Source: Leucoraja ocellata
Taxonomy: Eukaryota
Length of the DNA: 64,000 nt
Reading direction: 5' to 3'
Assembly: GCA_036785375.1 (NCBI GenBank)
Contig: JAWMAR010000279.1
Span: 496,001 to 560,000 of the forward strand
This document shows, one piece after another, positions 1,878-60,490 of this stretch; position 1 is the first letter of the stretch, and each line of letters opens with the position of its first letter. Both the position numbers and the translations under genes were made by a program. Under the pieces are notes generated by a model. That model was not told where the DNA came from and made no database searches. It saw nothing but the letters and a program-made list of their open reading frames with translations.

Positions 1878-2050
1878 CCACAAAGTGCTAGTGTAACTCA
1901 GCGGGTTAGGCAGCATCTCTGGAAAACATAGACAGGTGACATTTTGATTGGAATCCTTCTGAATATCCATGTTTTCCACAAATGCAGTTCAACCCACAAA
2001 GCTCCTCCAGCATATTGTGTTTTATGTTCAAGATTCGGCATCTGTCATTC
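1878..2050. mobile_element. Old Penelope-derived terminal repeats in inverted orientation
   Basis: Antisense arm (taactcagcgggttaggcagcatctctgga) followed by a degenerate sense arm (ctcctccagcatattgtg...gcatctg); same family as 10971-11235. Confidence 0.55.
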
Positions 2051-5040: not shown

Positions 5041-6079
5041 AATCTTTGAAGCAAAACTGTAACAAAGCGAGAATGTAGTGGATTTAGTACAAACCACCTC
5101 AACTGACTGGCAAAAACTGACACTAACATGCTCCAGCATTTCCTGATGATTAAAAATAGATCAGTACTTGATCAGATTTGATTTGTCTTGTATTTGTTGA
5201 CAAGTCATACTTGCAAAATATTCTACACAGAAGGGTAAAAGGCACTATAATAAAGCCAGAAGCATGATTACTTCTTCATTACATATTTAGCAACACAACT
5301 GGAAGCTTAGTGAGTATACAAATTACCTGTATGATATCAAATCCATTTAGGCCTCAAATAACATATGGATGGAACTACATTGGCTTTTGTGTGGGAAACT
5401 CATAAGGAGGCAGCCAAGATAGATAATTTATCGGGAACATCTGGGCCAAGATGATTTACAATGCATCAGCTGATCTCTGTCATTGTTGAGGCCAAGAATG
5501 ATCAAGGAGAAACTTCATTTGTCAAATACAAAACCTCCAGCACAATTTGTGAATATTTCTGAGAGCCTGTCTGACACAGTGGGTATGGGAAAATTTAGTT
5601 CAATTTTGCAGGCTTCTTCAGAAGATCAGCATACATAACATTCAGTATTGTAGCTTCACCCCGTAGGCACCTAATTTTCAAGCACTTCCAGCACTGCTTC
5701 TCATATGGTTTTCTGCAACTCATCAATGAACCACAATTAGTCTGCTTACTGAATGGTAACTGTAGTGATATTCTGTGCCATTACAAACTGGCTGCATACA
5801 ATTTTCCACCTTCTACAGAAATTGGCAGTTACTGATCTATGAGCTGCTAAATCTATTACATTTGGCACAAAGTGGTTGTGTTTTACAATTGAGATGAAGT
5901 CCAGTTCAATTGGATCTTCATGTCCACAAAGATAACAAGATGGTTATTGCTACAAATACACCCATGCAAATGGTTCAGTATCTGATTGATTAGCAAGTAC
6001 ACAGCGATACATGTTTTCCTCTCATCCCTTTGGAGAGCAACATAGTGGAACTGTGTCCCCAGTTGGAAAGGAATGAAGA

Positions 6080-6355
6080 GGCAGTGGCACAGCAGTAGAG
6101 CTGTTGCCTCACAGCACCAGACACCATGGTTCAATCCTGACTACAGATGCTGTCTTTGTACCTTCTCCCTGTGACCACATGGGGTTTCTCCAGGTCCCAC
6201 ATTCCAAAGACATGCAGGTTTGTAGGTTAATTGGTCTCTGTAAATTTCCCCCTAGTGTGTAGGATGCAAATGTGGGATGACTGATCTTGGGTGATTGATG
6301 GCTGGCGTGGACTCGGTGGTCTGAAGTGCCAGTTTCCATGCTATAACTAAACAAA
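6080..6355 (+). mobile_element. tRNA-derived V-SINE (HE1/HER1-like)
   Basis: A box TGGCACAGCAG (about 6086), B box GGTTCAATCC (6128-6137), V-domain-like tcccacattccaaagacatgcagg...aggttaattgg, and a CR1-like tail ending ctaaacaaa. Confidence 0.85.
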
Positions 6356-6744
6356 GTCTTTGGAAGTGAAGTATGGAAAACATGCCATGTCAGGAATGGA
6401 AAGAGTTTAATATCTTCCGATGGTTAGAAGGTGAAGGATGAATGAGAAGGGAAAACAAGAAGGCAAGGTCTCAAAGGAGCAGCTCAGATCTATGAAAAGT
6501 GCAGAGGAATATCCTTTTCAGGATAAGAATATCACAGAGGGCTCCCAGGGGAAGCGAATTGATGTAGCATGATGGGGGTGAGGAAATGTCTTGAGGCTTC
6601 AGATGTGTCGTGTTGGTCTTAACTGATCGAAAGACAGTTGGGGGCGGGGGGGGGGGGGGGGTAGCTGGATATGAAACAGTGTGTCCCAGGGTTCCCAACG
6701 GTATTAATGTTAGACAATGAAAAGGGCTAGCTGAAGAACAAACC

Positions 6745-7870
6745 CCTTCACCAGGCAACTCTTTCTCCTCCCCAGCTAGCCTCTGCTGCGGGGTTCCACA
6801 AGGTTCCATCATTGGTCCCATTCTCTTCTCCCCTTAGGACAAGTTATTCAAAGGCACGGCATTTCCTTCCATTGCTACGCAGACGATACACAACTCTATC
6901 TCCCCCTGAAGCCCAAAAACCAATCAAATCTGCATAACCTTATCCGCTGCCTCGAGGATATAAAGTGTTGGATGGCCCAGAACTTCCTCCAACTAAACGA
7001 AAGTCTGAGGTCATCCTTCTCAGCCCCTCGGACTCAATCAAAATGATAGCAGGCAGCCTTGGAAGCCTTACCCCATTACTCAAACCTCACGTCAAAAACC
7101 TTGGTGTGATATTTGACTCAGCATTGAAATTTGACAAACAAGTCAATTCCGTGGTAAAAGCTAGCTTCTTTCAGCTTCGGATGATAGCTAAAATAAAACA
7201 ATTCCTCCAGTTTGATGACCTCGAAAAGATCATCCACACATTTATCTCCTCCCACCTAGATTACTGCAACTCCCTCTATACTGGCTGCCAATCTTCCCTG
7301 TCCCACCTGCAACTGGTCCAAAACGCCGCAGCAAGACTCCTGACGGGCACCCGAAAAAGGGACCACATCACCCCGATCCTGGCCTCTCTCCATTGGCTCC
7401 GTGTGGTTCCGAATAAATTTCAAGATCCTCCTTTATAGAAACATAGAAACTTTATGTCTACAAAGCCCTTAATGGGCTTGCCCCCACCTACATCAAAAGT
7501 CTGCTTACCCACCACACCACCTCCAGGTCCCTCAGATCGGCTGACTTGGGGTTACTGAACATCCCGCGGTCTAGGCATAAACTCAGGGGCGACCGCGCCT
7601 TTGCGGTTGCAGCTCCTAGACTGTGGAACAGCATCCCTCTTCCCATCAGAACTGCCCCCTCCATCGACTCCTTTAAGTCGAGACTTAAAACTTATCTCTA
7701 CTCTCAAGCCTTTCTTGACGTCATCTGAGGTCTATATGTATGTAGTGATGTTTGTATTTAATCTAAGAACCAATGTTGTATAACGTTAGTACCTCCACCA
7801 ATGTAAAGCCCTTTGGCCAACGAGAGTTGTTTTTTAAATGTGCTATACAAGTAAAAGTGACTTGACTTGA
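6745..7870 (+). mobile_element. L2 LINE, 3' part, frameshifted
   Basis: GVPQGSIIGP, YADDTQLY, SHLDYCNSL, LQLVQNAAARLL, HITPILASLHWL and GDRAFAVAAPRLWNSIP motifs; (GACTT)n tail. Confidence 0.9.
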
Positions 7871-8224
7871 TACCATCTAACTGCAACAATGTTGGGCACA
7901 CCCGTTTCATACCCCACTTGCACTCCCCACCCACCCGCTGCCACCACAGCCAAGTAATAACTCTGCCGGTCAACACCAAGCCAACACACTAAACCACTAT
8001 CGGACTACAAGGCACTGCTGCAGTTGGGTTTGGAGTTGAAGGGAATCAGGATCTGAGAGGCAGGGCAATCCAATACCCCACCTTGCAGGCTGGTGGGAGG
8101 GAGGGGTTCATTGCAATGGGGTGTTGGAGTCACGGTCCTGCACCCCTGGCGCTGGGTGGGGAACGTCTCGTGGGGGTTGGGGCTGGAGATACAAGTGTGA
8201 GGGAGATGGTGATGGGACGGTCGA

Positions 8225-8802
8225 TGGTGGTGGTGGTGGTGGTGGTGGGGGAGACGGTGCAGGGGGGGTGGGAGGTAGATGGTGGGGATGGCGATGGGGA
8301 GGCGAGAGAGGTGAGAGTGGGGATGGGGGGGGATGAGGGTTAGGGGGTGGGGTGAGGGGATGAGGGTGGGGGATGGGGTGAGGGATGGGGGAGGGGTGGA
8401 GATGAGGATGAGGGGTGGGGATGGGGGGAGGGGTGGAGATGGGAAGTGGGGGGAGGGGTGGGGGATGGGGGAGGGGTGGAGATGGGGGATGGGCGAAGGG
8501 GTGGGGGATGGGGGGTGGGGGATGGGCGGAGGATGGGGGGAGGGGTGGAGATGGGGGATGGGGGGAGGGGATGGGTGGGGGATGGGGGAGGGGTGGGGGA
8601 TGGGGGGGAGGGGTGGAGATGGGGGATGGGGGGAGGGGATGGGTGGGGGATGGGGGAGGGGTGGGGGATGGGGGGGAGGGGTGGAGATGGGGGATGGGGG
8701 GAGTGGGGGGAGGGGTGGGCGATGGGGGGGTGGGGGGAGGGGTGGGCGATGGGTGGAGATGGTGAGTGGGGGGATGGGTGGAGGATGGGTGGGGGGGGGG
8801 GG
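8225..8802 (+). repeat. G-rich low-complexity minisatellite, G-quadruplex prone
   Basis: About 570 bp of GGGGATGGGGG(A)GGGGTGG(A/G)GAT-type units. Confidence 0.9.
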
Positions 8803-9250
8803 CTACCTGTGGCCCCGCAAACCCACCAACAGCCACCGCCCACCCGTCCACCCGTCCACCCGCTGCCCCTCAGCCGCGGATCCCTGGCCGTCCCCGGTAA
8901 AACAACTCCACACCTCCTCCCCCTCCCGCCGCCGCCATCATTTTCCCCTCCCCCCGGCAACGCAGACACTCACTCACTCACGGCTGCCCGGCGACCAACA
9001 GACAGACGAACATCATCTCCCGTTGTCCACCGTCGACGATGGACAAGTAGTTCCAGGTGGGGGGGAGGGGGAACTACTTGCCCGCCGCTTCGCCGCGCAC
9101 TCGGCGGCCAGAGAAGCCGCTCCGCCGCCGGCGGCGACTCACCTCCTGGAGCCGCCGTTGTGTACAACCGCCGCCGGCCGGCAGCTGCTCCTATTGGCTG
9201 GGCGCGCGGTTATAGAATTCTACTGGCGAACTGTGAGACAACAAACCCCC
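8800..9250 (-). promoter_or_regulatory. CpG-island promoter and non-coding first exon(s) of the minus-strand gene
   Basis: Dense CpG, (GCC)n runs, CCAAT box at 9193-9197 (minus strand), strong donor CAGGAG|GTGAGT (exon ends at 9143) and a second donor GCC|GTGAGT (exon ends at 8982). Confidence 0.75.
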
Positions 9251-9629
9251 CCCCCCCCCCCCCCCCACTTCACTCCAGGCTGCAACACAACACAACCCAC
9301 CGACCCGTGTCCCTTCACACAAACTGTAACTTGTCCCTTCCTACAAAAGAGGGAGGGAAAAAACGAATGTGCTCTGATACGCAAATGTCAAAGAAAAAGA
9401 AAGACATCATTCACAATAAAACCCTTTTTTGTTTGAAAAATAGAAGTGGGTAGAACCTATTCTGAATACATCGCACTGCAACCCCTTATGTGGAAAGCAT
9501 GCAAAAACATTGCCGCTTTGTTTGCCGAATTCAGAAATTTTGCAAATTGTTCCTCTTGTTTAAAAGCTAATCTGGCTGAATAGACAACGAAGAAAGTATA
9601 CATTCTGCCATTTGTCTACAATATTTGAG

Positions 9630-9650
9630 CCAATCCAGCCAAATGGCGGC
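9630..9650 (+). promoter_or_regulatory. CCAAT box and YY1-type motif; possible divergent promoter element
   Basis: CCAAT at 9630-9634 and AAATGGCGGC at 9641-9650, inside CpG-retaining unique DNA that extends to about 10.9 kb. Confidence 0.4.
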
Positions 9651-10957
9651 GTTTGATTTACACTAAATCGTCGTCTGTTTGGCATTCCGCTACCGACATT
9701 AGGAATTTTAAATTACATTCCTCCATGGCTGCTGCGGAATTCAATCCGAGCAGGTTTGGTGGCAATCGATGCGAAGCCAAGAATGTTCAGAAAATACCTT
9801 TCAATTCATTGCACAGATTAGAGACAAAATTCTTGCACCTTTGTGGACGATGACTTCAACTTGCGTTTATATCGACGTGCATGCCTCCATCATCTTGTGT
9901 CTGAAGCAATTGTAACCGCTTTACCAATCCACACTGTGATTTTCCATGAAGGAACTTTCCCTTCGGCTAGTAAAATCAATTTATTTTAAAAGTCCACTGG
10001 TGAACAATCAGGGTGGGAGGGAGAAAGCAACAATTACAACGTTGCTTGGCAAAATTGAAGAAAATGTTTTATGGTGTAATTATATTTTATACCAACCATG
10101 CCGATAAGAAATTCTGAACACGTCAGTATTTGGTTCAAATTACGCCCGTCGATCGAGCAGAATGGTTGGTTATTTAGGTTGAGTGTTCATCGACTATAAT
10201 TGTAATGATTAGCCATGGGGAAGCGGCAGTTGGAGTCTATTCTTGCCAGCGTTCAAATCCATATCGTTTTAACCCAACTTCGTGCGGTCCAGTCGACAGA
10301 GAGTGAATCAAAACCAACTCGTACCGGGGGCTGGCTCCCTCCCTCCCTCCCTCCGCGTCCGGCGACACGTTGACAAGTTGGAATGTTCTGACGTTTCTGC
10401 AGACTTTTGTAAACCAACTGGGCATCGGTTTGTAACTTTTAGGATGCGCAGTGGGAAAACTATCGAAGGATCGAGCTTAAGCTCAAGATACACAGGCATG
10501 AGCATCATTAAAAACACCCAGAAAGCACTGAAAATACTCAGCTGGTCCGATCGCAAATGCTGTAAGACAAGCAGTGCTAACTTTTCAGGTCCAGGAACCT
10601 GATACAAAACTGAAAAGGATAGAATTGAAATTCGTTAAGGAGAGCCGACTCATAGGTTAAAACCGCGGTAACCATGAGGCTAAGCTGTATACAAGGTTGT
10701 CTAGCCAACGAGGGCAGTTCGAGAGTGAGAATATAAACAAGAGGACACGGAGAAAAGAATGTAGCAGTTGCAAAATGCAGAGTAGCAATGCAATAGGCAA
10801 GTCCTTTGCTCCCAGAGAAAACAAAACAGGTGAGCCAATATCGCAGGCGGATGACAGATTCAGAAATTGAAATCATGAATTTGTAGGTTGTAGAATTCAT
10901 TACCGAGTCCAGAAAGCTGCTTCTCGCCCTGGCAGAACGAGGGGATGATCATCAAAC

Positions 10958-11249
10958 CTCAATTGTAACAGGAGAAACTCAGCGGGTGCAGCAGCATCTA
11001 TGGGGCGAAGGAAATAGGCAACGTTTCGGGCCGAAACCTTTCTTCAGAGGACACGGAGAAAAGAACGTAGCAGTAGCAAAATGCAGAGTAGCAATGGAAT
11101 AGGCTGAAGAAGCGTTTCGGCCCGAAACGTTGCCTATTTCCTTCGCTCCATAGATGCTGCTGCACCCGCTGAGTTTCTCCAGTTTTTTTTTTATGTACCT
11201 TCGATTTTCCAGCATCTGCAGTTCCTTCTTAAACACTCAATTGTAACAG
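10958..11249. mobile_element. Penelope-derived inverted pair with hammerhead cores, captured host DNA and a 14-bp TSD
   Basis: Arms 10971-11047 and 11104-11180 are inverted copies; the spacer 11047-11104 duplicates 10741-10798; TSD CTCAATTGTAACAG at 10958-10971 and 11236-11249. Confidence 0.85.
11104..11135 (+). ncRNA. Minimal hammerhead ribozyme-like motif (PLE type)
   Basis: CTGAAGA-agcgtttcggccc-GAAA-cGTT: the CUGANGA/GAAA core with a palindromic ACGT stem III; stem II has one mismatch in this copy. Confidence 0.55.
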
Positions 11250-11259
11250 TGCAGGAGGC

Positions 11260-12400
11260 TATAAGCCAATGGGTCAGAGTAGAAGTGGGATGGAGAATTC
11301 AAGTACACACAACAGGAAGCTCAAGGTTCCCCTGCGGACAGAATGCGGGTTTGTCACAATGTGATAATCCAATCTGTATTCGGTTTATCCGATGTAGAGG
11401 TCACATTGTGTACATTGAATGTAGTAAACTAGAGTGGAAGTGAAAGTGAATTGCTGCTTCACTGGAAATAGTTTGGGTCCTTGATTGGTAGGAAAGGAAA
11501 AGGTTAAAGGCTAGACGTTATTTTGCTTGAAGATGCAAATTAAACTTTCAAAAAGAGTGTTGTTGGTGGGAAAGGAAAAGTAGATGAGGAGTTACCAAGA
11601 GAATATTCCTTGAAAAATGATGAAAGGGAATGGAGTAAAAAGTGTCTTTGAAAGATGGTGGAAATTGTAAAGAATGAGCTGTTGAAACCAGAGTCTGGTG
11701 AGGTGGAAGGCAAGGACCAGATAAACCCTATCCATTTGTATGGGAAGACGCATCGTTGGAGAAATACAACACAGATAAAGGGGACTAAATTAGATTCCCT
11801 CCAGGAAACAGGGTGGCATGAAGATTAGTCAGAGAGGTCTCAGAGTTAGAGATTAGCAACAAATGTAATGGATTTGTCAAGTTCTACATGACTACAGGAG
11901 GCAGCACCAATGCCATCATCATTGTATTGAATTAGGTAGGACTGAAACAAAGACTGTTCCACGTTTTCAACAAAAAATCAGGCATAGTTTTGGTCCATGT
12001 GAATTACCATTCTAACTCCTTTGATCTGGGGAAAGTGAGTACAGTTGAAGGAGAAGTTGTCCAAAAAGTTCACCAGATGAATGACTGTTGGACCTCTGCT
12101 CAAGGAAGAAGTAAAGAGGTGTCAGACCATCCTGATGTATGGGGTGGAGATGTAAAAAGATTTTATGTGCATGGTAAAAATGTCAGTTGGGACATGGACA
12201 TTTGAAATAGTTAAATTGGTGGAAGTCATCATGGATATAAATGGGAAGGAGCTGGACCAGACACGATAGGATAGAATCAAGGCACAAAGAAATATGTTGA
12301 GTGGGACAAGAGAACATATTAGGCATAATCTACATACCATAAAATGTATTCTGATACGAGTGACCTCTTCTGGGCTTATGATTCCACTACTGGTGTGATG
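11260..12400 (-). mobile_element. Highly decayed Penelope-like element
   Basis: Residual similarity to PLE copies (gtgaggtggaaggcaaggaccag, gggaaggagctgga, DIFTMHIKSFYISTP resembling FTMDFQSLYTSIP). Confidence 0.5.
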
Positions 12401-12854
12401 TATGTATAGGATAAAGACCCAAACAAGTCCTGGGTGGGTAAGACAAAAATTTACATTTCGCTGTTCACCTGGTTAGTTGGATAAAAGAGTATGCAACTGC
12501 AGGGTGTAGCCGCATGGATAAAATATCAGTTAGGTTTTAAAGAAAATGGACCCTGATTTGCATTCATCATCATTGTTACTTGCAGTATTTAAAATATCCA
12601 TAATCTGTGCATTCATGAGATATGCTTCAGTCTTGAAATAATTTATTGAATGAATGAACCAGGTGAAGATTAATGCACTGTAACATAATGTTCCCAATGG
12701 AGAAAAGTTTGAGACAAAGCCCTCAATTGACTTTGATCAAATGTAGTGAATCTGATTATATGCCTAAATAATTATGGGAGGAGAAAAAGGCAGTGTCATG
12801 TTAATTGATAATGCATAAAGCTTCATAAGACTTTGTTATCTAGTATTTTTACTA

Positions 12855-13600
12855 GTTTGACGCCTGGGTTAGAGGGTTTCAGCTATAGGGAGAGCTTTGA
12901 TTGACCTGGGTTGCTTTCTCTGGAATGTCAGAGGTTAAGGGGAGACTTGATAGAAATATAAAAATAAAAATTATAAGAGGCATCGATGGGGAGACAGTCA
13001 GAACCTTTTTCCAGGGTAAAATATCCAACACTAGAAAGCACTGCTATAATTGTATTGTATATCTTTATTGTCATTTTCCTGAGTACTCACATACCCAGAG
13101 GAAACAAAAAAACGTTGCTCAACCAGTGTCCATTCAGTGTGCAGTAAAAAATAAATAGAAATAAAAATACATATATCATGAACAAATTAACACTCTACTC
13201 TCTACTAAACATCAACATGCGTTTGGATCGGCAGCGGCAGGACAGTGGTTCTGCTGCAGTGTGTCCAGGTTGGTGGTTGGTGCGCGATACTTTGGCTGGG
13301 GGCAAAGTCCGTTTATCAGTCTTATAGCCTGCGGGAAGAAACATATAAGAAACTATAAGGTGAAGGTAGAAAGTTTAATGGAGATGTATGGGGTTAATTC
13401 TTTTTACACATTGCTTGAAGTTGTGGTGGAGGCAGATACGTTAGTGGCAGTTAAGAGGTTTTTAGATATCCACATTGAAGTGTAGGGAATAGAGAGATAT
13501 GGATCATGTGCAGGCAGATGAGATTGGTTCCGCTGGGCATCATGTGGAGCACAAACAACGTGGGCGTAGGGGCCATCCCTGTGCCTTACAGTTCTATGTT
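12855..13600 (+). mobile_element. CR1 3' fragment interrupted by a minus-strand Rex1-like 3' fragment (about 13047-13345)
   Basis: CR1 motifs (aggttaaggggagacttgatagaa; VVEADT) on both sides; the insert begins ttgtattgtatatctttattgtcat and ends cttatagcctgcgggaagaaac. Confidence 0.65.
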
Positions 13601-15369
13601 CTATCAGAAAGACTACACTGATTGTTAATGGAAAGGTGAAGGCATTTGGGGAAAGGACTAATTCACAGGTAAAGGATGTATCCAATGTTTGAGCTGAACA
13701 GCTCCATTCTGCTGACAATTAAAATCATCTTGAGTGCTTCAAGTTTTTTTTCCTCTGTGAACAGAACAAACATTTAGTAAAAATGAGCCTTTTACAGAAA
13801 AATAAGCTTATAATTAAGCTTATAGGCTATTAAACAATCTCAACCTATGTTGGAATTGTTCAGATTTTCACCTTGTCAAAAACAGCACACCAGTACCTTT
13901 ATAATCTTGAAGCCACGATTGTTCTAATTTAGATGAAAGATATCCCTAGTGGGACAATAATCACATATTTATTTTCAAAAAGATACTAACATACAATTAA
14001 AGTTAAAAGATTTCAAAACCAAAGATGTTAGCCTGCTCAATCAGTCCCTTACTTTAGATTTCATTTAAGAATCTACAAATGGAAAATACGTTTGTTTCAA
14101 TTTGAATTTTATTTGCATGTTGCTAAGTTAATGATATTTGGATCATTGATAAAAACAAAGTACAAAGTTGCAATCAAGCATTTATATACAAACCTAGTTT
14201 TAAGGAATACTGCACTTAAAACATTTATTCTATTTAACCCGCCTGCTTAAAAAATATGCAGGAATTAATTGCTATTATGGAGAATATGATTAATATGCAC
14301 ACAAAGATGCTGTTCTACTATACAAATCAACAATATGTTGACTTAGTCAGCTTCTAGTTTTCCTTCTTTTTATTAAGCTGATAAATTTAATTCAATTTGG
14401 TGCGTTGAGTACATTTCTAATGCATTTTCAAAATGCACCAAACTAAAATATGGAAATGTTATATTTACATCACACTCTTCAGTAGAATATTAAAAATCAA
14501 CAGCTGAATCACATAACATAGCATAACATTAATAAAAATACACAGTTGGATTTTGATTCCTGGTTAAAAAATACAGTTTTGTTTATGTATTAATTTATTC
14601 AACAACTCTGCAAAAGATTTTCATTTACAATAATGCACTTGTTGTGGTCTCTAAAGTCGATATTTTTAGCCCAAAATTCACTGAGCTTGTATTTTCTAAC
14701 ATCAGAATTGAGAAAGGACAAATTTCTAACCAATCCAGAAAAATAACTTTGTATATTAGTTTAAAACTAATTTAAATCAGCTAGAAGAAACTTTAATAAT
14801 CCTTTTATATAAATCTTAATTTATTTACTGGTTGTCTTTCTTCAGTCGAACATTGATGATATGGATAGATGTGCATGTACAATGTTAATTTCCTGCCTGC
14901 AAATGTCTCCTTTATTTGCACTGGCTTTAAGACTCAAAAGACATAGATCAGTCTACTTGGGGTCTTCCTTAGGTAAATTTTCCTCCTGGGATAAATAAAG
15001 TTCTATTGTTTTGATTGGTATCGTACCTGCTATCTACCTCCGCATCAGGTATATATTTCCTTTTACATTGCTGTAAATCTCCTCATTGGTAGAGTAGCTG
15101 TGCTCATTTGCCTGAAGCTGTTGCAAAGTCCTCATTTACTGCTTTGCAATTTGTGTTTTTTTATTTTATAGATTTTTTTTTTAATCATCTACATCTATTT
15201 TGTTATTTTAATTCGTTCTTACAGCATTCTGTATTTTAACAAATGTAGCTCTGCAGACGGATGTGGACAAAATGATGCAAAAAATACCTTGCAAAATATG
15301 ATTAGAATCATGATACTGTGTCAGGCTGGGATTAGAGGAAACAATAAAGCTCAGAATGGACAGCAGCCC

Positions 15370-15660
15370 GTCAAGCCATTGATAGGAGCATATTTAGGCC
15401 TTTTGGCCTATCGTCCACACCTGCATTCAATCATGACTGATCTATCTCTCCCTCCTAACCCTATTCTCCTGCCTTCTCCCTATAACCCCTGACACCCTTA
15501 TAAAAAGGCTTTCTGAAAATCAAGGTAAACAACATCCACTGACTCACCTTTGACTGTCCTGCTATTTACTGCCTCAAAGAATTCCAACAGATTTGTCAGG
15601 CAGGATCTCCTCTTTACAAAACCATGCTGACTGGCCTATTTTATCATGAACTGCTAAATA
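15370..15660 (-). mobile_element. CR1 fragments
   Basis: 3' UTR motif cattcaatcatgactgatc...gccttctccc joined to an RT fragment (aaggctttctgaaaatcaagg; caaaaccatgctgact). Confidence 0.65.
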
Positions 15661-16804
15661 ATCAGGGAGGAGTAACTTAATGCCCAGATAATATAACAGT
15701 TAATATAACTTGAAATCTGACAAGCCAGGACTAATCATTGTTCAGCCAAGATGAATATTGCAAAAAAGAGTTATGGTGAGATACATGCCCTCAGTGCATT
15801 TCCAATTTATTTCAAGGAATATAAATGTGTCCTGATGTCTTCATTTATGTTATGATGTCTATGATGTCAAATGCATGTCAACTTTTTGTATAGCCTGTAA
15901 AATAAATGGATGTGAGGTAGATTTTCGATAAGGCCCCATGCAGAAGGTTAAAGCACACACTGTGGAATAAATTATTTATATCCTTTCTTACTTAATTTTG
16001 ATCGGAATTGAACAAGGTAACAAAAGGGTGTTTGGATGTGACAATTGGCATCTCTCATTGATCGGACGTAGAAGAGGTTCTTGGGAATCAGCAAAGTAAG
16101 ATTAGATGTATTACCTCTTGTCTAGGAATGTGTTGAAGGGTGGATGGTAAATATAAACATGAAATAGTAGACGCAGATAAGGAAGCTTGTTTCTCTCAGC
16201 AGTATGTTACAATAGACCATCTGTGCCCCCTACCACTAGTAGCGTAGATATGTTGCAGTAAATGGGGGGCTTATGATTGGTTCGGAGAGGGGATGGTGGC
16301 GCGGTCTGCCTATAAGGTGAGATGGAATAATGTCAAGATGTCCTTATATTGTGTTTGACTTGTATTAATCATCTGTTGTTGAATAAGATTGACATAAAGA
16401 AAAAGTATGTTATTACTAATTAAATAATTGGTACCCATGTAGTAGATAGTATATTTTCGTATAGTTGTATCTAACAAAAAACAAAAGTTGTTTCCAGTAC
16501 ATTATAACTGTCGGCTAATTCTGTTATGAAGTCAGAGAACTGGTGAGCAGTTAACTGCCGCCATCTCCCCATGATATCATGCAATAATGTCTCTTGAAGC
16601 AAACTTGCGATGTCTCCACTTTCCATATTCATTTAATATCCCCCAAAATTAATTTCTTCCACACGTGCAGAATTAGTATTAATACACAGTGATTGGATTA
16701 AGAATTTGTTAACAAACAGAAAGGGAAATGAACTGCTTTTCTCAGCTAAGGAGAAACTGGTGCAGCAACATCACAGTACTGTCTAACATCTGTTCTCCCA
16801 ATCA

Positions 16805-25874: not shown

Positions 25875-26710
25875 AGAAGGTAGACAAAAATGCTGGAGAA
25901 ACTCCACGGGCGAGGCAGCATCTAAGGAGCGAAGGAAATAGGCGACGTTTCGGGTCGAGACCATTCTTCAAACCAATGTGGAGGTGGGGGGGGGCGGGAA
26001 GAAGAAAGGAAGAAGCGGAGACTGGGCTGTGGGAGAGCTGGGAAGGGGAGGGGAAAGAGGGAGAAAGCAGGGACTACCTAAAATTGCAGGTCAATATCCA
26101 TACCGCTGGGGTGTAAACTACCCAAGCGAAATATGAGGTGCTGTTCCTCCAATTTACGGTGGGCCTCACTCTGGCCATGGAGGAGGCCCATGACAGAAAG
26201 GTCGAATTCGTAATGGGAGGGGGAGTTGAAGTGCTGAGCCACCAGGAGATCAGGTTGGTTATTGGGAACCGAGTGGAGGTGTTGGGCGAAGTGATCACCA
26301 AGCCTACGCTTGGTCTCACCAATGTAGAGCAGCTGACACCTAGAGCAGCGGATTCAATAGATGAGGGAGGAGGTGCAGGTGAACCTCTGCCGCACCTGGA
26401 AAGACTGCTTGGGTCCTTGGATGGAGTCAAGGGGGGAGATAAAGCGACAAATGTAGCATTTCCTGCGGTTGCAAGGGAAAGTACCAGGAGAGGGGGTGGT
26501 TTGGGTGGGAAGGGATGAATTGACCACGGAGTTACGGACGGAGCTGTCACTGTTTTACATGACGGTTGGTAGGGTGAAAGGTGAGGACAAGGGGGACTCT
26601 GCCCTTGTGACGAGTGGGGGGGATGGGGAGTGAGAGCAGAGTTAAGGGATATAGATCAGACCCTGGTGAGAGCCTCATCTATAGTAGAAGAGGGGAACCC
26701 CCGTTCCCAA
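25875..26710 (-). mobile_element. Penelope-like element, GIY-YIG endonuclease end plus terminal repeat
   Basis: Reverse complement matches 30062-30872 (QLLYIGETKRRLGDHFAQHL...LEEQHLIFRLG); degenerate hammerhead at about 25943-25971. Confidence 0.88.
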
Positions 26711-26893: not shown

Positions 26894-27025
26894 CTGAAGA
26901 AGGGTCCTGACCCGAAATGTCACCCATTCCTTCTCTCCAGAGATGCTGCCTATCCCACTGAGTTACTCCAGCCTTGTGTCTACCTTCGATTTAAACCAAC
27001 ATCTGCAGTTCTTTCCGACGCACAG
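26894..27025 (+). mobile_element. Mini-Penelope terminal unit starting at a hammerhead core
   Basis: CTGAAGA-agggtcctgaccc-GAAA-tGTC, followed by acccattccttctctccagagatgctgcc...catctgcagttc. Confidence 0.75.
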
Positions 27026-39055: not shown

Positions 39056-39307
39056 TAAACTTTTAACATAAACAACAATCCCAGATATAATTTATAACAG
39101 ATGATCAATTATAGAAAATGAATACAGATATTAATTGATTAAAAAGTAACTGTTAATCCCCCCAATGGTGTTAATATATATTGTGTAAGAGGGAACTGCA
39201 GATGCTGGTTTAAACCGAAGATAGACTCAAAAATCTGGATTAACTCAGCGGGCCAGGCAGCATCTCTGGAGAGAAGGAATTGGTGACGTTTCAGGTCGAG
39301 ATCCTAA

Positions 39308-42418: not shown

Positions 42419-42735
42419 TGTGTAAGAGGGAACTGCAGATGCTGGTTTAAACTGAAGATATACACTAAACGCTGGAGTAACTCAGCGGGACAGGCAGCAT
42501 CTCTGGAGAGAAGGAATGGGTGACGTTTCGGTTCGAGACCCTTCTTCAGACTAGTTATGGAGAAGGTAAATGAGATATATAGACCAACGATCTTTGATAT
42601 AGACGATGATGTGGAGAGATAAAGAACAATGAATGAAAGATATGCAAAAAAGTAATGATGATAAAGGAAACAGGCCATTGTAAGTTGTGTATGGGGGGGG
42701 GGTGGGTGAGAAGATAGCACTACTCGGATGGGGAG

Positions 42736-42784
<49 letters not shown>

Positions 42785-43640
42785 GAGAGGGGGGGGGGGT
42801 GAGGGAGTGCCGGGGCTACCTGATGTGAGATAAATCAAAATTCATACCACTGGGCTGTGAACCACCCAAGTGAAATATGAGATGCTGTTCCTCCAATTTG
42901 AGTATAGAAGCTGGGATGTAATGTTAAAATTGTACAAGGCATTGGTGAGACCAAATCTGGAGTACGGTGTACAATTTTGGTCGCCCAATTATAGGAAGGA
43001 TGTCAACAAAATAGAGAGAGTACAGAGGAGATTTACTAGAATGTTGCCTGGGTTTCAACAACTAAGTTACAGAGATAGGTTGAATAAGTTAGGTCTTTAT
43101 TCTCTGGAGCGCAGAAGGTTAAGGGGGGACCTGATAGAGGTCTTTAAAATGATGAGAGGGATAGACAGAGTTGATGTGGACAATCTTTTCCCTTTGAGAA
43201 TAGGGAAGATTCAAACAAGAGGACATGACTTCAGAATTAAGGGACAGAAGTTTAGGGGTAATATGAGGGGGAACTTCTTTACTCAGAGAGTGGTAGCGGT
43301 GTGGAATGAACTTCCAGTGGAAGTGGTGGAGGCAGGTTCATTGGTATCATTTAAAAATAAATTGGATAGGCATATGGATGAGAAGGGAATGGAGGGTTAT
43401 GGTATGAGTGCAGGCAGGTGGGACTAAGGGGGAAACAAAATTGTTCGGCACGGACTTGTAGGGCCGAGATGGCCTGTTTCCGTGCTGTAATTGTTATATG
43501 GTTATAATTTGCGTTTAGCCTCTGACAACTGTGTTCGAATGGGAAGGATAATTAAAGTGTTCAGCAACCGGGAGATCAGGTTGGTTGACGCGGGCTGAGC
43601 GAAGGTGGTCCGTGAAACGATCGCCCAGTCTGTGTTTGGC
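42419..43640 (-). mobile_element. Penelope 3' end with intact hammerhead core, split by a CR1 insertion
   Basis: Minus strand agtCTGAAGAagggtctcgaaccGAAAcGTC (42549-42522); GIY-YIG remnants at 42830-42900 and 43506-43640; (GA)n at 42741-42781. Confidence 0.85.
42901..43505 (+). mobile_element. CR1 3' end, young copy
   Basis: Near-identical to 56205-56815; TSD AATTTG (42895-42900, 43506-43511). Confidence 0.93.
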
Positions 43641-46094: not shown

Positions 46095-47876
46095 ATAGAA
46101 TAGAATAGAATAGTTTCTTTATTATCATTGTAACATGAACCATGTACAACGAAATTTAAAAATGTCAGCCAGTCAGTGCACCATTCAAACATTTCTAAAA
46201 GCTAACGATACATACAAGATAAAATATTAAAAGATAAACAACTAAAATAAATATCATGAAAATAGCACGCATAAACACCCAACCCTCCATCCTTCTGTCG
46301 ATTTCACAGTGTACCACAGTCCCTTAGTATGTATCGCCCCTGCGTTCCTTGGCGGCTACATTTAGTGCTTTTATAGCAGTGGGGTAAAAACTGTTTTTTA
46401 GTCTGTTCGTCCTTGTCCTTATAGATCTGTACCGTCTGCCTGACGGCAACAGTTCAAACAGGGAGTGTCCGGGGTGGGAAATGTCCTTTATAATACTCTG
46501 GGATTTTTTGATGCAGCGGGAACTGTGTAAGTCCTCCAAGGTAAGGAGAGGGCAGCTGACAATCCTCTGGGCATTGTCAATGGCCCTCTGGAGCGCTTTC
46601 CTCCGAGCCGCTGTGCAGCTGGTGTACCACACGCATACACAGTATGTTAGTATGCTCTCAATGGAGCACCAATAAAAGGACAGCAGCAGTCTCTGAGTGG
46701 TGTTATTCTTCCGGAGCACCCTCAGGAAGTGCAGTCTCTGCTGGACCTTTTTCAGCAGTGCAGTGGTGTTCACGCTCCACGTCAGATCCTCCTCAATATG
46801 GATTCCCAGGAAGCGGAAATCCGCCACCCTCTCCACACAGTCCCCTCTGATAATCAATGGTACCATGTCCGTTTTATTCTTCCTAAAGTCTATTATTAAT
46901 TCCTTTGTCTTTAAGGTGTTGAGGAGCAGGTTATTTTCTTCACACCACACTGTCAGCTGCTCCACCTCATCCCGGTAGGCGTACTCGTCCCCCCCGGAGA
47001 TGAGTCCCACCGCCATAGTGTCATCCGCAAATTTGACAATGGTGTTGCTGTGGTGGGCGGGGGTGCAGTCATGTGTGTAGATGGTGTAGAGCAGGGGGCT
47101 CAGTACGCAGCCCTGTGGAGAGCCGGTACTGAGGCTGAGGGCCGTGGATGTATGATGGCCCACTCTGACTCTCTGGCTGCGGCCCGACAGGAAGCTATTT
47201 ATCCACGTGCAGGTGGAGTGTAGAAGACCCAAGTCCCCCAGTTTGTCCACCAGTTTGTGGGGAAGGATGGTATTAAAAGCAGAGCTGTAATCCACAAAGA
47301 GCATCCGCACGTAGCTCCCCCGCTGCTCCAGGTGAGACAGTGCAGCATGGAGAGCTGTGGCTACAGCGTCCTCTGTAGATCTATTTGCTCTGTACGCAAA
47401 CTGGTGGGGGTCAAAGCTTCGGGGCAGGAGTGATGTGATATGACCCCGGACCAGTTTTTCAAAACACTTCATCACCACTGGTGTGAGTGCGACTGGCCGG
47501 TAGTCATTGAGGCTGGAGATGTTGTTTTTTTTGGGCAAGGGGACTATGGTGGAGGACTTCAGACAGGGTGGAACAGTGGACTGGGCCAGAGACTGGTTAA
47601 AAATCCTCGTACAGACTCCAGCCAGCTGGTCTGCGCAGTCCTTTTACACGCGTCCAGAGACGCCGTCAGGTCCAGTAGCCTTCCTTGGATTGATGGCCCG
47701 CAGCGTGCGCCTCACCTCATGCTCCTCTATCTTGAGGGTTAGGCTGCTGTGGACCATGTGCTGTGATGTGGCTGTCTCGGGTGGCTCCACTTCAAAGCGA
47801 GCAAAGAAGTGGTTCAGCTCCTCTGCCAACGAGGCGTCACCTTCAACAGCTCCAAGGTTGGTCTTATAGTTGGTGA
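46095..47876 (-). mobile_element. Rex1/Babar LINE, 5'-truncated, young
   Basis: (TTCTA)n tail at about 46095-46113; open RT ORF; upstream AEELNHFFARFE and NPRKATGPDGVSGRV. Confidence 0.93.
46324..47538 (-). CDS. Rex1/Babar reverse transcriptase, uninterrupted 404-aa C-terminal part
   Basis: [55 protein letters not shown] and KFADD. Confidence 0.9.
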
Positions 47877-48644: not shown

Positions 48645-49940
48645 GTTAAGTAAGTAAGTTTATTGGCCAAGTATTCACATACAAGGAATTTGCCTTGGTG
48701 CTTCACCCACAAGTAACAACATGAAATACAGTGGCAGTTATGAATGACTCAGAAAACACCAAACATTAATAATAATAAAACATTAATGATAAAACACCAT
48801 TGATCAAGCATGTGAACCAACAAAATACCAGATCAAAGGGAGGCTGCAGATTTTTGGCTGTCGAGTAGAGCAACTACTCGTGGATAAAAACTGTTTTCAT
48901 GTCTGGCTGTGGCAGCTTTGACAGTCCGGAGTCGCCTTCCAGAGGGAAGTGATTCAAAGAGTTTGTGGCCAGGGTGAGAGGGGTCAGAGCCCACTCACTT
49001 CCTGGCCCTTGCAGTGTACAGTTCATCAATGGAGGGAAGGTTGCAGCCAATAATCTTCTCTGCTGATCAAACGATTTGCTGCAGCCTCCAGGTGTCGTGT
49101 TTGGTGGCTGAGCCAAACTAGACCATGATGGAGAAGGTGAGAACAGACTCTACGATGGCCATGTAGAATTAGACCATCATTGCCTGTGGCAGATTGTACT
49201 TCCTCAGCTGCCGCAGGAAGTACATCCTCTGTTGTGCCTTTTTGACTGTGGAGTCGATGGTAGCCCCCCACTTAAGGTCCTTGGAGATGATGGTTCCCAG
49301 GAACTTAAAAGACTCCACAGATGTGACTGTGGTGTTGTTGATGGTGAGTGGGGTGAGGGGAGGGGGAGCTCTCCTAAAGTCTACAATCAATTCCACTGTC
49401 TTAAGAGCATTGAGCTCTAGGTTGTTGCTACGGCACCAGGACGCCAGCTCTGACACTTCCTGTATGTAGGCAGATTCCTCCCCATCCTGGATCAGTCCAA
49501 TCAGGGTTGTGTCGTCCGCAAACTTGAGAAGCTTGACAGAGGTGGCTGTGGAGGTGCAGTCGTTGGTGTAGAGAGCGTAGAGGAGAGGAGACTGTATGCA
49601 GCCTTGCGGTGCTCCTATGCTGAGTGTTTGCAGGTCAGAGATCCCAGCCTCACATGCTGCTTCCTGTCTGTCAGGAAGTTGATGATCCACTGACAAAGGG
49701 GTTCAGGCACAGTCAACTTGGAAAGTTTGGAGTGTAGTAGCTGTGGCACAATGGTGTTGAATGCAGGGCTAAAATCAACAAACAGGATCCTCGCATAGGT
49801 CCTCTGGCGGTCTAGGTGCTGAAGGATGAAGTGCAGGCCCAGGTTGACTGCATCATCTACAGATCTATTGGCCCGATATGCAAACTGCAGAGGGTCCAGC
49901 AGGGAGCTTGTGATATTTTTCAGCTTGGCCAGCACAAGCA
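48645..49940 (-). mobile_element. Rex1/Babar LINE, second subfamily, frameshifted
   Basis: [30 protein letters not shown] and an (ACTT)n tail with AATAAA at about 48647-48664. Confidence 0.9.
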
Positions 49941-52844: not shown

Positions 52845-53782
52845 ATGAGGGCCAGGGCAGTTTTCTGTTCTGGATGTCAGATGTGGGAGGTCATGGAGTC
52901 TGAGTGCCCTCCAGACGTCCACATCTGCGCCAGGTGCGTCGAGATGAGGCTCCTAAGGGACCATGTTAGGAACCTGGAGCAGCAGCTCGATGACCTCTGT
53001 CTGGTCAGGGAGAGCGAGGAGCTCATATAGAGGGTAGTTATAGGGAGGTGGTCACTCCAAGACCACGGGAGGCAGACAACTGGGTCACAGTTAGGAAGGG
53101 CAATGGGCAGTGGCAGGGTCTGGTGAGTACCCCGGTGGCTGGACACCTTGAAAATAAGTACTTGTGTTTGAGTACTGTTGGGGGAGACGGCCTACCTGGG
53201 GGCAGCGACAGCGGCTGGGCCTCCGGCACAAAGACCGGTCCTGTTACTCAGAAGGGTAAGGAAAAGAAGAGGAGGGCAATAGTAATAGGGGACTCTATAG
53301 TCAGGGGGTCGGATAAGCGATTCTGTGGGCGCAGACAGGAGTCCCGGATGGTAGTTTGCCACCCTGGTGCCAGGGTCAGGGATGTGTCTGAACATGTCCA
53401 AGATATCCTGAAATGGGAGGGAGAGGAGCTTGAGGTTGTGGTACATATAGGTACCAACGACATAGGTAGAAAAAGAGAACAGGTCCTGAAAGGAGAATTT
53501 AGGTAGTTAGGGAGAGAGTTAAGGAGAAGGACCGCAAAGGTAACAATCTCAGGATTACTGCCTGTGCCACGTGACAGTGAGAGTAGGAATGGAGTGAGGT
53601 GGATGATAAATGCGTGGATGAGGGACTGGTGCAGTGGGTATGGATTCAAGTTTCTGGATCATTGGGACATCTTTTGGGGAAGGTGCGACCTGTACAGAAA
53701 GGACGGGTTGCACTTGAACTCAAGGGGGACCAATATACTGGCGGGGAGATTTGCAAAGGCTACTGGGGAGACTTTAAACTAG
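52845..53782 (+). pseudogene. CR1 ORF1: Zn-finger/coiled coil plus SGNH/GDSL esterase, disrupted
   Basis: CSGC...CARC, VIGDSIVRG, VHIGTNDI and DGLHLN; one frameshift near 53030 and an in-frame TAG at 53504-53506. Confidence 0.9.
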
Positions 53783-53929
53783 AATGGTTGGGGGGGGGGG
53801 GACGGGGACTCAAATAGGGAAAGCTAGCAGTCAGTGTGTGAGGCAGGAGGCAGAGAAGGGTAGCACTCTGACTCAAAATGTAGGGGAGAGAGAAGAAAAA
53901 GACATTAAACAGAGTATAAGAGGAGGTGG

Positions 53930-58440: not shown

Positions 58441-58726
58441 AGAGAGTAGTTGGCGATTGGGCATGGCAAACTAAAAGGGTTTTTCGGAAATGTGTATTTT
58501 GCTACTAGGAAAGTAGTTGGTAAGAGGTTTTGCTACCCGGAGAGTAGCCGGTAAGTTATTTTGCTATTAGGAAAGTAGTCGGTGATTGGCTCCGGAAACT
58601 AAAAAAGTTTGTCATTCACATAGTAGCCGGGCTGAGAGAGACACTATGGGGAATAACCTGGATAAAAGTGATGGGGGGGACGCCCGTATAACATATATGT
58701 CCTAAAAGTAACAAAGATTATAGAAT

Positions 58727-60490
58727 GTTTAAGAAGGAACTGCAGATGCTGGAAAATCGAAGGAAGACAAAGGTGCTGGAGAAACTCAGCGGGTGCAGCA
58801 GCATCTATGGAGCGAAGGAAATAGGCAACTTTTTGGGCCGAAACCCTTCTTCAGACTGATGTAGGGTGGGGGGGAGGGGGGGGGGGGAGAAGAAAGGAAA
58901 AAGGAAGAGGAAGAGCCCAAGGGCTGAGGGAGAGCTGCGAAGGGGAGAAGACAGAAAAGGTTACCGGAAATTGGTGAATTCAATGTTTATGCCACTAAGG
59001 TGCAGACTGCCCAAGTGGAATATGAGGTGTTGCTCCTCCAATTTCCGGTTTTCCTCACTCTGGCCATGGAGGAGGCCCAGGACAGAAAGGTCGGATTCGG
59101 AATGAGAGGGGGAGTCGAAGTGCTGAGCTACCGGGAGATCTGTTTGGTTAATGCGGACCGAGCAGAGGTGTTCGGCGAAACGATCGCTAAGCCTACGCTT
59201 GGTCTCACCGATGCACATCAGCAGACATCTAGAGCAGCGGATTCAATAGATGAGGTTGGAGGGGATGCAGGTGAACCTCTGTCGCACCTGGAACGACTGC
59301 TTGGATCCTTGAATGTAGTTGAGGGGGGAGGTAAAGTGACAGGTGTAACACCTCTTGCGGTTGCAAGGGAAAGTGCCCGGGGAAGGGGTGGTGCAGGAGG
59401 GAAGGGAAGAATTGACCAGGGAGTTACGGAGGGAGCGGTCTTTGCGGAAAGCAGACGGGGGGGGGGGGGGGGGGGGGGAGATGGGAAGATGTGGCGAGTG
59501 GTGGGGTCACGTTAGAGGTGGCGAAAATGACGGTGGACTATTTGTTGTATGTGACGGGTAGTGGGGTGAAAGGTGAGGACTAGGGGGACTCTGGTCGAGA
59601 AAGAAACGGAGGGCTTTGAGACCATCATGGTGGGGGATGGAGGTGTAGAGTGACTGGAAATCCATGGTGAAGATGAGGGGATGGGGGCCTAGAGAATGGA
59701 ATGCCTGGAGATTACGGAGCATGTCTGAAGTGTCTTGAACATAGGTCGGGAGGGATTTAACCAGGGGAGGATAGGATGGAGTCAAGGTATGCGGAAATAC
59801 GTTTGGTAGGGCACGAACAGGCAGAAAGATTGGGTCTACCAGGACAGTCAGGTTTGTGGATTTTGGGGAGAAGGTAAAATCGGGCCGTATGGGGCTGGGG
59901 AATGATGAGGTCGTAGGCTCGGGGGTGGGGGGGGGGGTGGGCAGGGAGCCGGAGTGGATGGTGCTAGAGATGGTGGCCTGGTGCACAACTGTGGGGTTAT
60001 GGTCCAGGGATAAGTAGGAGGAGGTGTCCGAGGGTTGGCGCGTGGCCTCAGCTTTGTAGAGATCAACGCGCCAGACAAGCACGGCACCTCCCTTGTCGGC
60101 AGGTTTGATAACCCAATCTGGGTTGTTGTGGAGTGAGTCGATAGCTGTACATTCGGGGGGGGGGGTGATAGATTGGAGTGAGACAGGGGAGTGGAGAGGT
60201 TGAGGCAGTTGATGTCGTGACGGCAGTTTTGGGTAAAAAGGGTTTAAAGCCGGAAGGCCATGAGGGGGTTCACGAAGATGGGTTCGTTGGAGACAGGAAA
60301 AAGGATCACCAGTAGCAGGCGAGGACTCCTTCCCAGGGAAGAAAACGCTGTGAGGCAGAGGCAACTGTAGAAGAGCTCCAAGTCGTGGTGGGCGCGGAAC
60401 TCATTGAGGTGGGTACGGAGGGGGACAAAGGTAAGACATCTGCCAAGGACCGACCATTCGGTGTCGGAGAGGGGGAGGTCAGGGGGGATG
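58727..60490 (-). mobile_element. Penelope-like element (RT fragment, GIY-YIG, terminal repeat) with internal deletion
   Basis: VIKPADKGGAV, LPTYVQDTSD, IFTMDFQSLYTSIPH and CIGETKRRLSDRFAEH; TSD ATAGAAT (58720-58726, 60491-60497). Confidence 0.93.

What the first reader, a model, noticed from the sequence alone, without database searches (positions are those of the whole stretch)
10741..11249. Hammerhead-bearing Penelope unit that copied adjacent host DNA between inverted arms
Seen: one insertion bounded by a 14-bp TSD contains an antisense arm (10971-11047), a 58-bp copy (11047-11104) of host 10741-10798 with 3 mismatches, and a sense arm. Both arms abut the captured DNA exactly at the CTGAAGA hammerhead core. 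The captured piece ends in AATAGGC, complementary to GCCTATT just after the predicted cleavage site; the host copy shares AATAGGCAA with the element's antisense strand. Established: PLEs carry minimal hammerheads in their terminal repeats and often have inverted 5' repeats. Inference: this is a snapshot of template switching or capture of local host sequence guided by ribozyme-adjacent microhomology. Caveat: the host-supplied pairing is one base off the canonical stem I register.
Basis: partly seen in the sequence, partly recalled or inferred. Interest (0 to 1): 0.72.

Follow-up and report, generated by a model that had tools for sequence, protein, structure and literature searches.

The report
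Penelope insertion with local DNA patch
A short jumping-gene insertion carries, between its two mirror-image halves, a 59-base copy of DNA lying 160 bases away; such patches recur in 11 of 112 similar insertions examined in this genome and are likely repair scars of a kind known from human LINE-1, with no sign that the element's ribozyme motif steered them.

Summary
In detail: 14-bp target duplication, antisense arm, 59-nt copy of 10740-10798 (3 mismatches), sense arm with tail; the same locus recurs on a second contig. It is the clipped 3' end of an RT + GIY-YIG Penelope-like element (51,411 exact cores). Head-to-head pairs are common (1,448 strict matches) and stereotyped: short arm stopping near position 94, long arm at 129, 14-16-bp duplication, which fits priming on both target ends. 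Local capture recurs: 11 of 112 other pairs with 30-120-nt spacers hold 40-92-nt copies of DNA within 660 bp (foreign-locus control 54 of 4,773), about 1% of pairs, close to LINE-1's templated insertions (22 of 3,598). Ribozyme guidance is not supported: 0 of 11 other captures end in AATAGGC, ATAGG is not enriched before host-flanked cores, a 9-mer match arises in about 3% of random windows, and helix I is off register with helix II broken. Ending at the core is the family's habit. This scan noted single captures in two other genomes before; the recurrence count is what this report adds. Verdict: new variant of a known kind, modest interest.

The parts
10740..10798 (+). Donor: host DNA copied into the insertion; part of an old low-copy repeat; ends 160 bp before the left TSD
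10792..10800 (+). AATAGGCAA in the host, a direct repeat of 11013-11021 in the left arm; probably coincidental
10958..10971 (+). Left target-site duplication, 14 bp; its last 5 bases match the template at 4 of 5 (likely priming microhomology for the short arm)
10972..11047 (-). Short antisense arm: element positions 1-76 from the hammerhead core; starts about 15 nt short of the usual proximal site; G10.1 position mutated
11046..11104 (+). Direct-orientation copy of the donor, 59 nt, 3 mismatches; 3-nt overlap with the left arm, 1-nt overlap with the right arm
11104..11138 (+). Minimal hammerhead motif: CUGAAGA, extra A, helix II with a C-C mismatch, GAAA, palindromic ACGU, predicted cut after 11131; native 2-bp helix I lost, host sequence pairs only one base off register
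   Evidence: no Rfam hammerhead hit
11104..11235 (+). Long sense arm, ending at the family's distal 3' end; about 11201-11235 is the one-sided tail
11236..11249 (+). Right target-site duplication, 14 bp
58726..60400 (-). Longer, broken copy of the same family with RT-side and GIY-YIG coding remnants and a CX4CxxC linker; identifies the parent element

Best explanation
This is one insertion of the clipped 3' end of a Penelope-like retrotransposon whose two mirror-image halves were likely reverse-transcribed from both ends of a staggered cut and joined through a 59-nt patch likely copied from nearby host DNA by end-joining repair. Shown: the anatomy, the local source, the family-wide layout (short arm near position 94, long arm at 129, 14-16-bp duplication) and recurrence of local patches. 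Inferred: the endonuclease nicked both strands 14 bp apart; the bottom-strand end was primed at the distal start site and the top-strand end at an internal microhomology; both cDNAs stopped at the hammerhead's 5' edge, where most copies stop; usually the two cDNA ends anneal through the interrupted palindrome TCAG-T-CTGA, but here the long-arm cDNA end primed on the exposed top strand at 10798, copied leftwards to 10740, released, and annealed to the other cDNA through AGA. The polymerase is most likely a host end-joining enzyme of the polymerase-theta type (about 60:40 against the element's own RT; family knowledge, untested). The ribozyme did not need to cleave, and the shared AATAGGCAA is probably chance.
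For: Arm ends in 89 loci: short arm 91-98 in 62, long arm 127-129 in 77, duplication 13-17 bp in 55, matching two RT start sites and extension of both strands shown in vitro for an Anolis element (PMC11167929). 25 of the first 50 short-spacer pairs have a single A or T between the arms (by eye). 12 of 112 pairs had a local hit of score 40 or more that beat all 111 control loci; one (L181) is an element tandem, leaving 11; foreign-locus rate 54 of 4,773. With this locus, 9 of 12 captures have the geometry expected if the long-arm cDNA is the invader; junction overlaps are mostly 0-3 nt, with 5-15 nt in three. Arm-arm (3/76) and donor-copy (3/59) divergences are of one order. LINE-1 shows the same class at 22 of 3,598.
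Against: No intermediate was observed; sequence cannot name the polymerase. Right-hand overlaps of 0-1 nt in 8 of the 12 captures are short for theta-type priming. Of 43 spacers with 20 or more non-library bases, 31 had no strong source within 1.3 kb (some are element variants missing from my library, one source was found at 2.3 kb). Arkhipova 2013 explains head-to-head junctions by self-priming on an antisense template instead. No independent contig spanning the spacer was laid.
Confidence: 0.7

Rival explanations
1. Ribozyme-adjacent guidance: host AATAGGC stood in for the 5' strand of hammerhead helix I, or the cDNA end first copied the element's own AATAGGC and slipped to the identical host repeat, steering the jump.
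For: 9-nt identity at the donor's end, 11 of 12 with one gap if the G seen in organisms B and D is ancestral; the direct overlap at this junction is only 1 nt; 13 of 24 ATAGG-core junctions are arm-to-core joints in this very register, so priming there happens; the shifted helix is 7 bp.
Against: 0 of 11 other captures end this way; no ATAGG excess among host-flanked cores; chance of a 9-mer match at either end about 6% for this locus, about 0.8 expected over 13 events (from the 3% rate); at most 5 of the first 100 of 1,201 asymmetric joints fall within a base of the predicted cut, about half fall in helix II (by eye); RT must copy through GCCUAUU before it reaches the core, which removes that pairing (reasoning); cleavage is dispensable for insertion in vitro.
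Confidence: 0.12
2. The element's own RT jumped from the RNA's 5' end onto local DNA without host polymerase, with no special motif.
For: 0-1-nt right-hand overlaps in 8 of 12 captures; LINE-1 ORF2p is proposed to make templated DNA insertions (PMC11702581 passage); SDSA-like cDNA switching proposed for LINE-1.
Against: Donors lie 27-656 bp away, internal to the duplex, whereas LINE-1 templates lie within 15 bp; many spacers show iterated short repeats and snap-backs typical of repair synthesis (my reading).
Confidence: 0.28
3. The pair inserted with a short junction and the patch came later, when the 76-bp hairpin broke (cruciform or replication stall) and was repaired from nearby DNA.
For: The insertion folds into a -98.5 kcal/mol DNA hairpin; such inverted repeats are fragile (general knowledge).
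Against: Both arms are intact to the usual stop point with no loss, in this and most of the 11 other captures; donor-copy divergence is no lower than arm-arm divergence.
Confidence: 0.12
4. Assembly artefact or a normal internal part of the element.
For: No short-read contig with the spacer between the arms was laid.
Against: Two contigs carry it with their own differences; the copy has three differences from the donor; the spacer occurs at no other element copy among the hits; upstream element sequence is unrelated.
Confidence: 0.02

Closest known systems
Endonuclease-bearing Penelope-like elements with inverted 5'-truncated pLTR, one-sided 30-40-bp tail and TSD (PMC8557442 passages; PMC3846280 passages)
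   Same: Head-to-head arms, tail on one arm only (about 35 nt), TSD, RT + C-terminal GIY-YIG parent, hammerhead in the terminal repeat.
   Different: Reduced to about 130 nt without coding sequence; junction filled by a copy of flanking host DNA. Adineta Pen1 spacers of captured host DNA are described, but they are 0.9-1.5 kb, lie before the 3' pLTR, and no local source is stated in the passages I saw.
Anolis Poseidon element PAc in vitro (PMC11167929, parts 1-2 of 4 read)
   Same: Two RT start sites bracketing the tail; both target strands cut and extended; hammerhead cleavage not needed.
   Different: Different clade (this parent has the cysteine linker); 5' joining and local capture were not addressed in the parts read.
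LINE-1 twin priming and templated insertions (bioRxiv 10.1101/2024.08.27.596794, section 4 read; PMC11702581 passages)
   Same: Both target ends prime cDNA; cDNA ends joined by microhomology; under 250 bp of nearby DNA copied into the junction; similar rarity (0.6% vs about 1%).
   Different: Here both cDNAs copy the same segment to a shared stop, and donors lie 27-656 bp away (one at 2.3 kb) rather than within 15 bp; germline, not tumour.
Minimal type I hammerheads of metazoan PLEs (PMC4209133, parts 1-2 of 4 read)
   Same: CUGANGA...GAAA core, extra base before helix II, G10.1-C11.1, palindromic 15.2-16.2.
   Different: Native helix I here is only 2 bp; in this copy helix I is lost and helix II is broken in both arms.

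Membership tests
EN+ Penelope-like element | Parent ORF with RT and C-terminal GIY-YIG endonuclease | tested here: met
   Longer copies carry RVT_1 (E 1.2e-5) and GIY-YIG (E 6.4e-4) matches, both below Pfam's curated cut-offs, in 2 of 5 fragments scanned; 0 useful hits; motifs visible
EN+ Penelope-like element | Inverted 5'-truncated repeat, tail on one side, TSD | tested here: met
Neptune clade | CX2-5CxxC linker between RT and EN | tested here: met
   CX4CxxC; the linker is shared with Nematis
Neptune clade | RT phylogeny groups with Neptune | not tested
   no tree built; no reference RTs on hand
Minimal type I hammerhead of PLEs | Core, extra base, G10.1-C11.1, palindromic helix III in the family | tested here: met
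   native copy L004 against the description; Rfam gave no hammerhead hit
Minimal type I hammerhead of PLEs | Intact helices I and II in this copy | tested here: not met
   right arm: C-C in helix II, G-G at the first helix I pair; left arm: A-C at 10.1-11.1
Minimal type I hammerhead of PLEs | Self-cleavage as dimer | not testable with these tools
   needs an RNA assay
Templated insertion at a retrotransposon junction (LINE-1 type) | Under 250 bp of non-element DNA duplicated from the locus, inside the TSD | tested here: met
   59 nt here, 40-92 nt in 11 others
Templated insertion at a retrotransposon junction (LINE-1 type) | Template within about 15 bp of the insertion site | tested here: not met
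   160 bp here, 27-656 bp in the others; the 20 nt next to each insertion were left out of the flanks, so very near donors were not sought
Polymerase-theta-mediated end joining | 2-6-nt microhomology at both switches; dependence on the enzyme | tested here: inconclusive
   overlaps 3 and 1 nt here; mixed in the others; features recalled, dependence untestable
Non-LTR retrozyme | Head-to-tail tandem units each with a hammerhead | tested here: not met
   head-to-head single insertion; definition

The most novel reading that the evidence does not exclude
Penelope RT halts at the 5' edge of the hammerhead fold on both target ends and itself jumps onto host DNA hundreds of bases away, and at this locus the jump was steered by a host sequence mimicking helix I; the 1,400-plus head-to-head pairs in this genome would then be a fossil record of the unsolved 5'-joining step of Penelope transposition, with the ribozyme fold acting as a stop and landing signal rather than as scissors.
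Probability: 0.12. Interest if true: 0.7.

Novelty: new variant of a known kind. Interest (0 to 1): 0.36.

Why it matters
How Penelope-like elements finish an insertion is still open (PMC11167929 leaves the later steps unvalidated). These junctions show that the two ends stay unjoined long enough, and open enough, to copy DNA several hundred bases away, and that the one-sided tail can be read as the offset between two start sites used on opposite target strands. That gives concrete predictions for cell and in vitro assays. The locus itself is a dead scar: it has not spread and its ribozyme motif is broken.

Tried and rejected
Snap-back reading of the G at 11097 (that it was element-derived): rejected, because the donor has G there in runs of organisms B and D. 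Cleavage-site footprint (arms cut off at the predicted ribozyme cut): 13 such joints exist but they are about 1% of 1,201 asymmetric joints and no peak. Single capped transcription start at the Inr-like TCAGT (consensus recalled): the 5' ends spread over roughly -7 to 0 with many at -2, no single start; left open. Spliced template at the CAG acceptor-like site: no recurring upstream exon seen. Rfam search: only a hairpin-driven mir-722 match far below its cut-off. Search for an empty site: none in the own genome, none among the joints shown for four runs (15 shown, 624 not shown); contigs run 24 and 23 nt into the element, under the tool's 31-nt bridging rule, and X5 is weaker; no spacer contig was laid, which proves nothing either way. 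Local patches in non-inverted copies: none among the 2 testable of 30 loci. Rows dropped before counts: duplicates L085, L089, L107, L131, L170 and the listed duplicate places never fetched; L181 (element tandem); weak hits L076, L091, L100, L115, L182 (score under 40 though above controls); L102 (repeat donor); L032 (source at 2.3 kb, outside the fixed flank). One search stopped on a script error and was rerun.

Full report
Observation. The structure is as described. A 14-bp duplication (10958-10971, 11236-11249) encloses an antisense arm (10972-11047), a 59-nt direct copy of 10740-10798 with three mismatches, and a sense arm (11104-11235). The copy overlaps the element by AGA on the left and by C on the right. 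The spacer is found only here and in a duplicate locus on contig C362; other relatives of the donor are 74-85% identical, so the donor is the local one and the patch never spread (12 of 12 candidates scored). C362 is 97.4% identical over 7.8 kb and differs at 3 sites in 10637-11400. At 10760 and 10769 the donor agrees with its old relatives, and at 10791 runs of organisms B and D show the G that the copy has, so the direction is donor to copy. Contigs of three runs pass from both flanks 23-24 nt into the element and stop, a fourth 7 nt on the left; this is consistent with a shared insertion but below the tool's bridging rule, and no contig holding the spacer was laid.

What the element is. The unit is the 3' end of a very abundant family: 51,411 exact matches to a 17-nt core in a 3.4-Gb assembly. 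Longer copies continue upstream into broken RT and GIY-YIG coding sequence with a CX4CxxC linker; 2 of 5 fragments scanned matched RVT_1 and GIY-YIG below the curated cut-offs. That makes it an endonuclease-bearing Penelope-like element, likely Neptune (linker shared with Nematis per PMC8557442 passages; no tree). That the host is a skate or ray is my recall and the wording of earlier notes; no call names it. The core fits the minimal hammerhead described in PMC4209133 (parts 1-2 read). In a native copy helix II is intact and helix I is 2 bp; in this insertion the right arm has a C-C in helix II and G-G at the first helix I pair, and the left arm has lost G10.1.

The family layout. Head-to-head pairs with exact 17-nt arms number 1,234 (spacer 0-29), 129 (30-60), 51 (61-90) and 34 (91-120), duplicates and nested matches included; another 1,201 have one arm cut shorter. 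In 89 loci with 30-90-nt spacers the short arm ends at element position 91-98 in 62, the long arm at 127-129 in 77, and a 13-17-bp duplication was found in 55. The offset equals the one-sided 30-40-bp tail (PMC8557442, PMC3846280 passages), which PMC11167929 (parts 1-2 read) ties to two RT start sites, with both target strands cut and extended and ribozyme cleavage dispensable. I infer that the two target ends are primed at the two sites. Copies commonly begin within a few bases upstream of the core: 10 of 17 unselected cores in flanks and 27,796 cores lack the element's C at -8. The sequence there is an interrupted palindrome, and 25 of the first 50 short-spacer pairs have a single A or T between the arms (by eye), as expected if two cDNA ends anneal there. 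So abutting the core is the family's habit.

Does local capture recur? I analysed 112 distinct pairs: 44 from the first 50 listed of the 129, 41 of the 61-90 class and 27 of the 91-120 class, after dropping duplicates. Each spacer was aligned to its own +/-1.3-kb flanks (element sequence masked, the 20 nt next to the insertion left out) and to those of the other 111 loci. Twelve scored 40 or more and beat every control; foreign pairs reached 40 in 54 of 4,773. One of the twelve (L181) is an element tandem, leaving 11 captures of 40-92 nt, 0-6 mismatches, lying 27-656 bp away; two of them (L173, L174) have repeat donors, where the local copy is merely the best. With this locus: 6 upstream-direct, 2 downstream-direct, 3 downstream-inverted, 1 upstream-inverted. 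A further exact 25-nt source lies at 2.3 kb. Most spacers are element-derived (61 of 85), and 31 of 43 spacers with 20 or more non-library bases had no strong local source. Scaling by class gives about 15 captures among 1,448 strict pairs, about 1%, ignoring spacers under 30 nt; LINE-1 tumour insertions show 22 of 3,598, with templates under 250 bp within 15 bp of the site (bioRxiv 10.1101/2024.08.27.596794, section 4 read).

Is the ribozyme side involved? Tests say no as a rule. None of the 11 other captures ends in AATAGGC; their longer overlaps (5-15 nt in L069, L095, L097) are with the element's own end or with a neighbouring old copy's core. A match of 9 nt or more to the element occurs in 2.7-3.5% of random 20-nt host windows. 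ATAGG precedes only 24 of 51,411 cores; 13 are arm-to-core joints, 2 are this locus, 9 are host-flanked. Among all 60 rows of W-W-W-G-G before the core, host-flanked ATAGG is about 7 of 33 distinct, AATGG about 10 (by eye). Asymmetric joints peak in helix II, with at most 5 of the first 100 within a base of the predicted cut (by eye). In favour of a one-off role: the register here is the same as in those 13 joints, the direct overlap is only 1 nt, and the ancestral donor may have matched 11 of 12 with a gap. I put this at about 12%.

Mechanism. Most likely: staggered double nick; cDNA from both ends; both stop at the hammerhead's edge; the long-arm cDNA end primes on exposed upstream top strand, copies 59 nt, releases and anneals through AGA to the other cDNA; fill-in yields the duplication. 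The anatomy and recurrence are shown; every step of the order and the enzyme are inferred. Rivals are an RT jump, later repair of the hairpin (-98.5 kcal/mol as DNA; but donor-copy 3/59 is no younger than arm-arm 3/76), and self-priming on an antisense template as proposed in PMC3846280 for the inversion itself.

Novelty. Inverted arms, tail, duplication and minimal hammerheads are published for Penelope-like elements; templated local insertions are published for LINE-1 (also PMC11702581 passages). I found no paper on local templated patches in Penelope junctions (the last returned 0 papers for all five terms); that library lacks most subscription journals. bioRxiv 10.64898/2026.07.22.740005 was read in part 1 of 5 only, for the retrozyme definition. 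This scan earlier noted two single captures in other genomes and the family's sharp ends in this genome; those are unchecked notes. The addition here is the count, the distance range and the negative test of ribozyme guidance. New variant of a known kind; interest 0.36.

Noticed in passing
L069 and L095 (G000:C62 about 382500; C118 about 1638900): New insertions copied the flank of an older Penelope copy 150-240 bp away, pairing through about 15 nt of the shared hammerhead core.
   Followed up: partly
genome-wide; window 23346, 34796, 58854: About half of all cores begin within roughly 7 nt upstream of CTGAAGA, often at the 2-nt helix I strand; cause unexplained (RT stop, RNA 5' end, Inr-like or acceptor-like sequence, or the palindrome).
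   Followed up: partly
listing (first 100 of 1,201): When one arm is cut short, about half of the joints fall in helix II, not at the predicted cleavage site.
   Followed up: partly
L139, L142, L145-L147, L151, L156, L157: Pairs where the long, tailed arm is the one cut off at AATAGG and joined to the short arm's core.
   Followed up: partly
L112, L118, L128, L177: Spacers made of 2-4 iterated short copies of arm sequence, suggesting repeated prime-and-release.
   Followed up: no
L098, L173: Captured pieces with their own short terminal inverted repeats (11-20 nt), suggesting a snap-back after capture.
   Followed up: no
window 10758: Donor site is A here and in run X16 but G on C362 and in three other runs, while the copy has A: parallel change, old polymorphism or conversion from the copy.
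   Followed up: no
window 10714-10788 and 10823-10920: The donor sits in an old low-copy dispersed repeat (at least 10 other places, 74-85% identical), unidentified.
   Followed up: partly
window 6050-16118 and beyond vs G000:C362: The region is present twice in the assembly at 96-97% identity (haplotype or segmental duplicate); many fetched loci also come in pairs.
   Followed up: no
window 8000-9500: G+C- and CpG-rich low-complexity stretch just upstream.
   Followed up: no
window 46327-47643 (-), 49172-49702 (-), 53778-56729 (+), 42861-43424 (+): Open frames that read like LINE reverse transcriptase and endonuclease remnants (by eye, not scanned).
   Followed up: no
window 1895-1923, 25886-25970, 26894-27015, 39182-39299, 42419-42549: Copies of older sister subfamilies with compensated helix I and II variants.
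   Followed up: no
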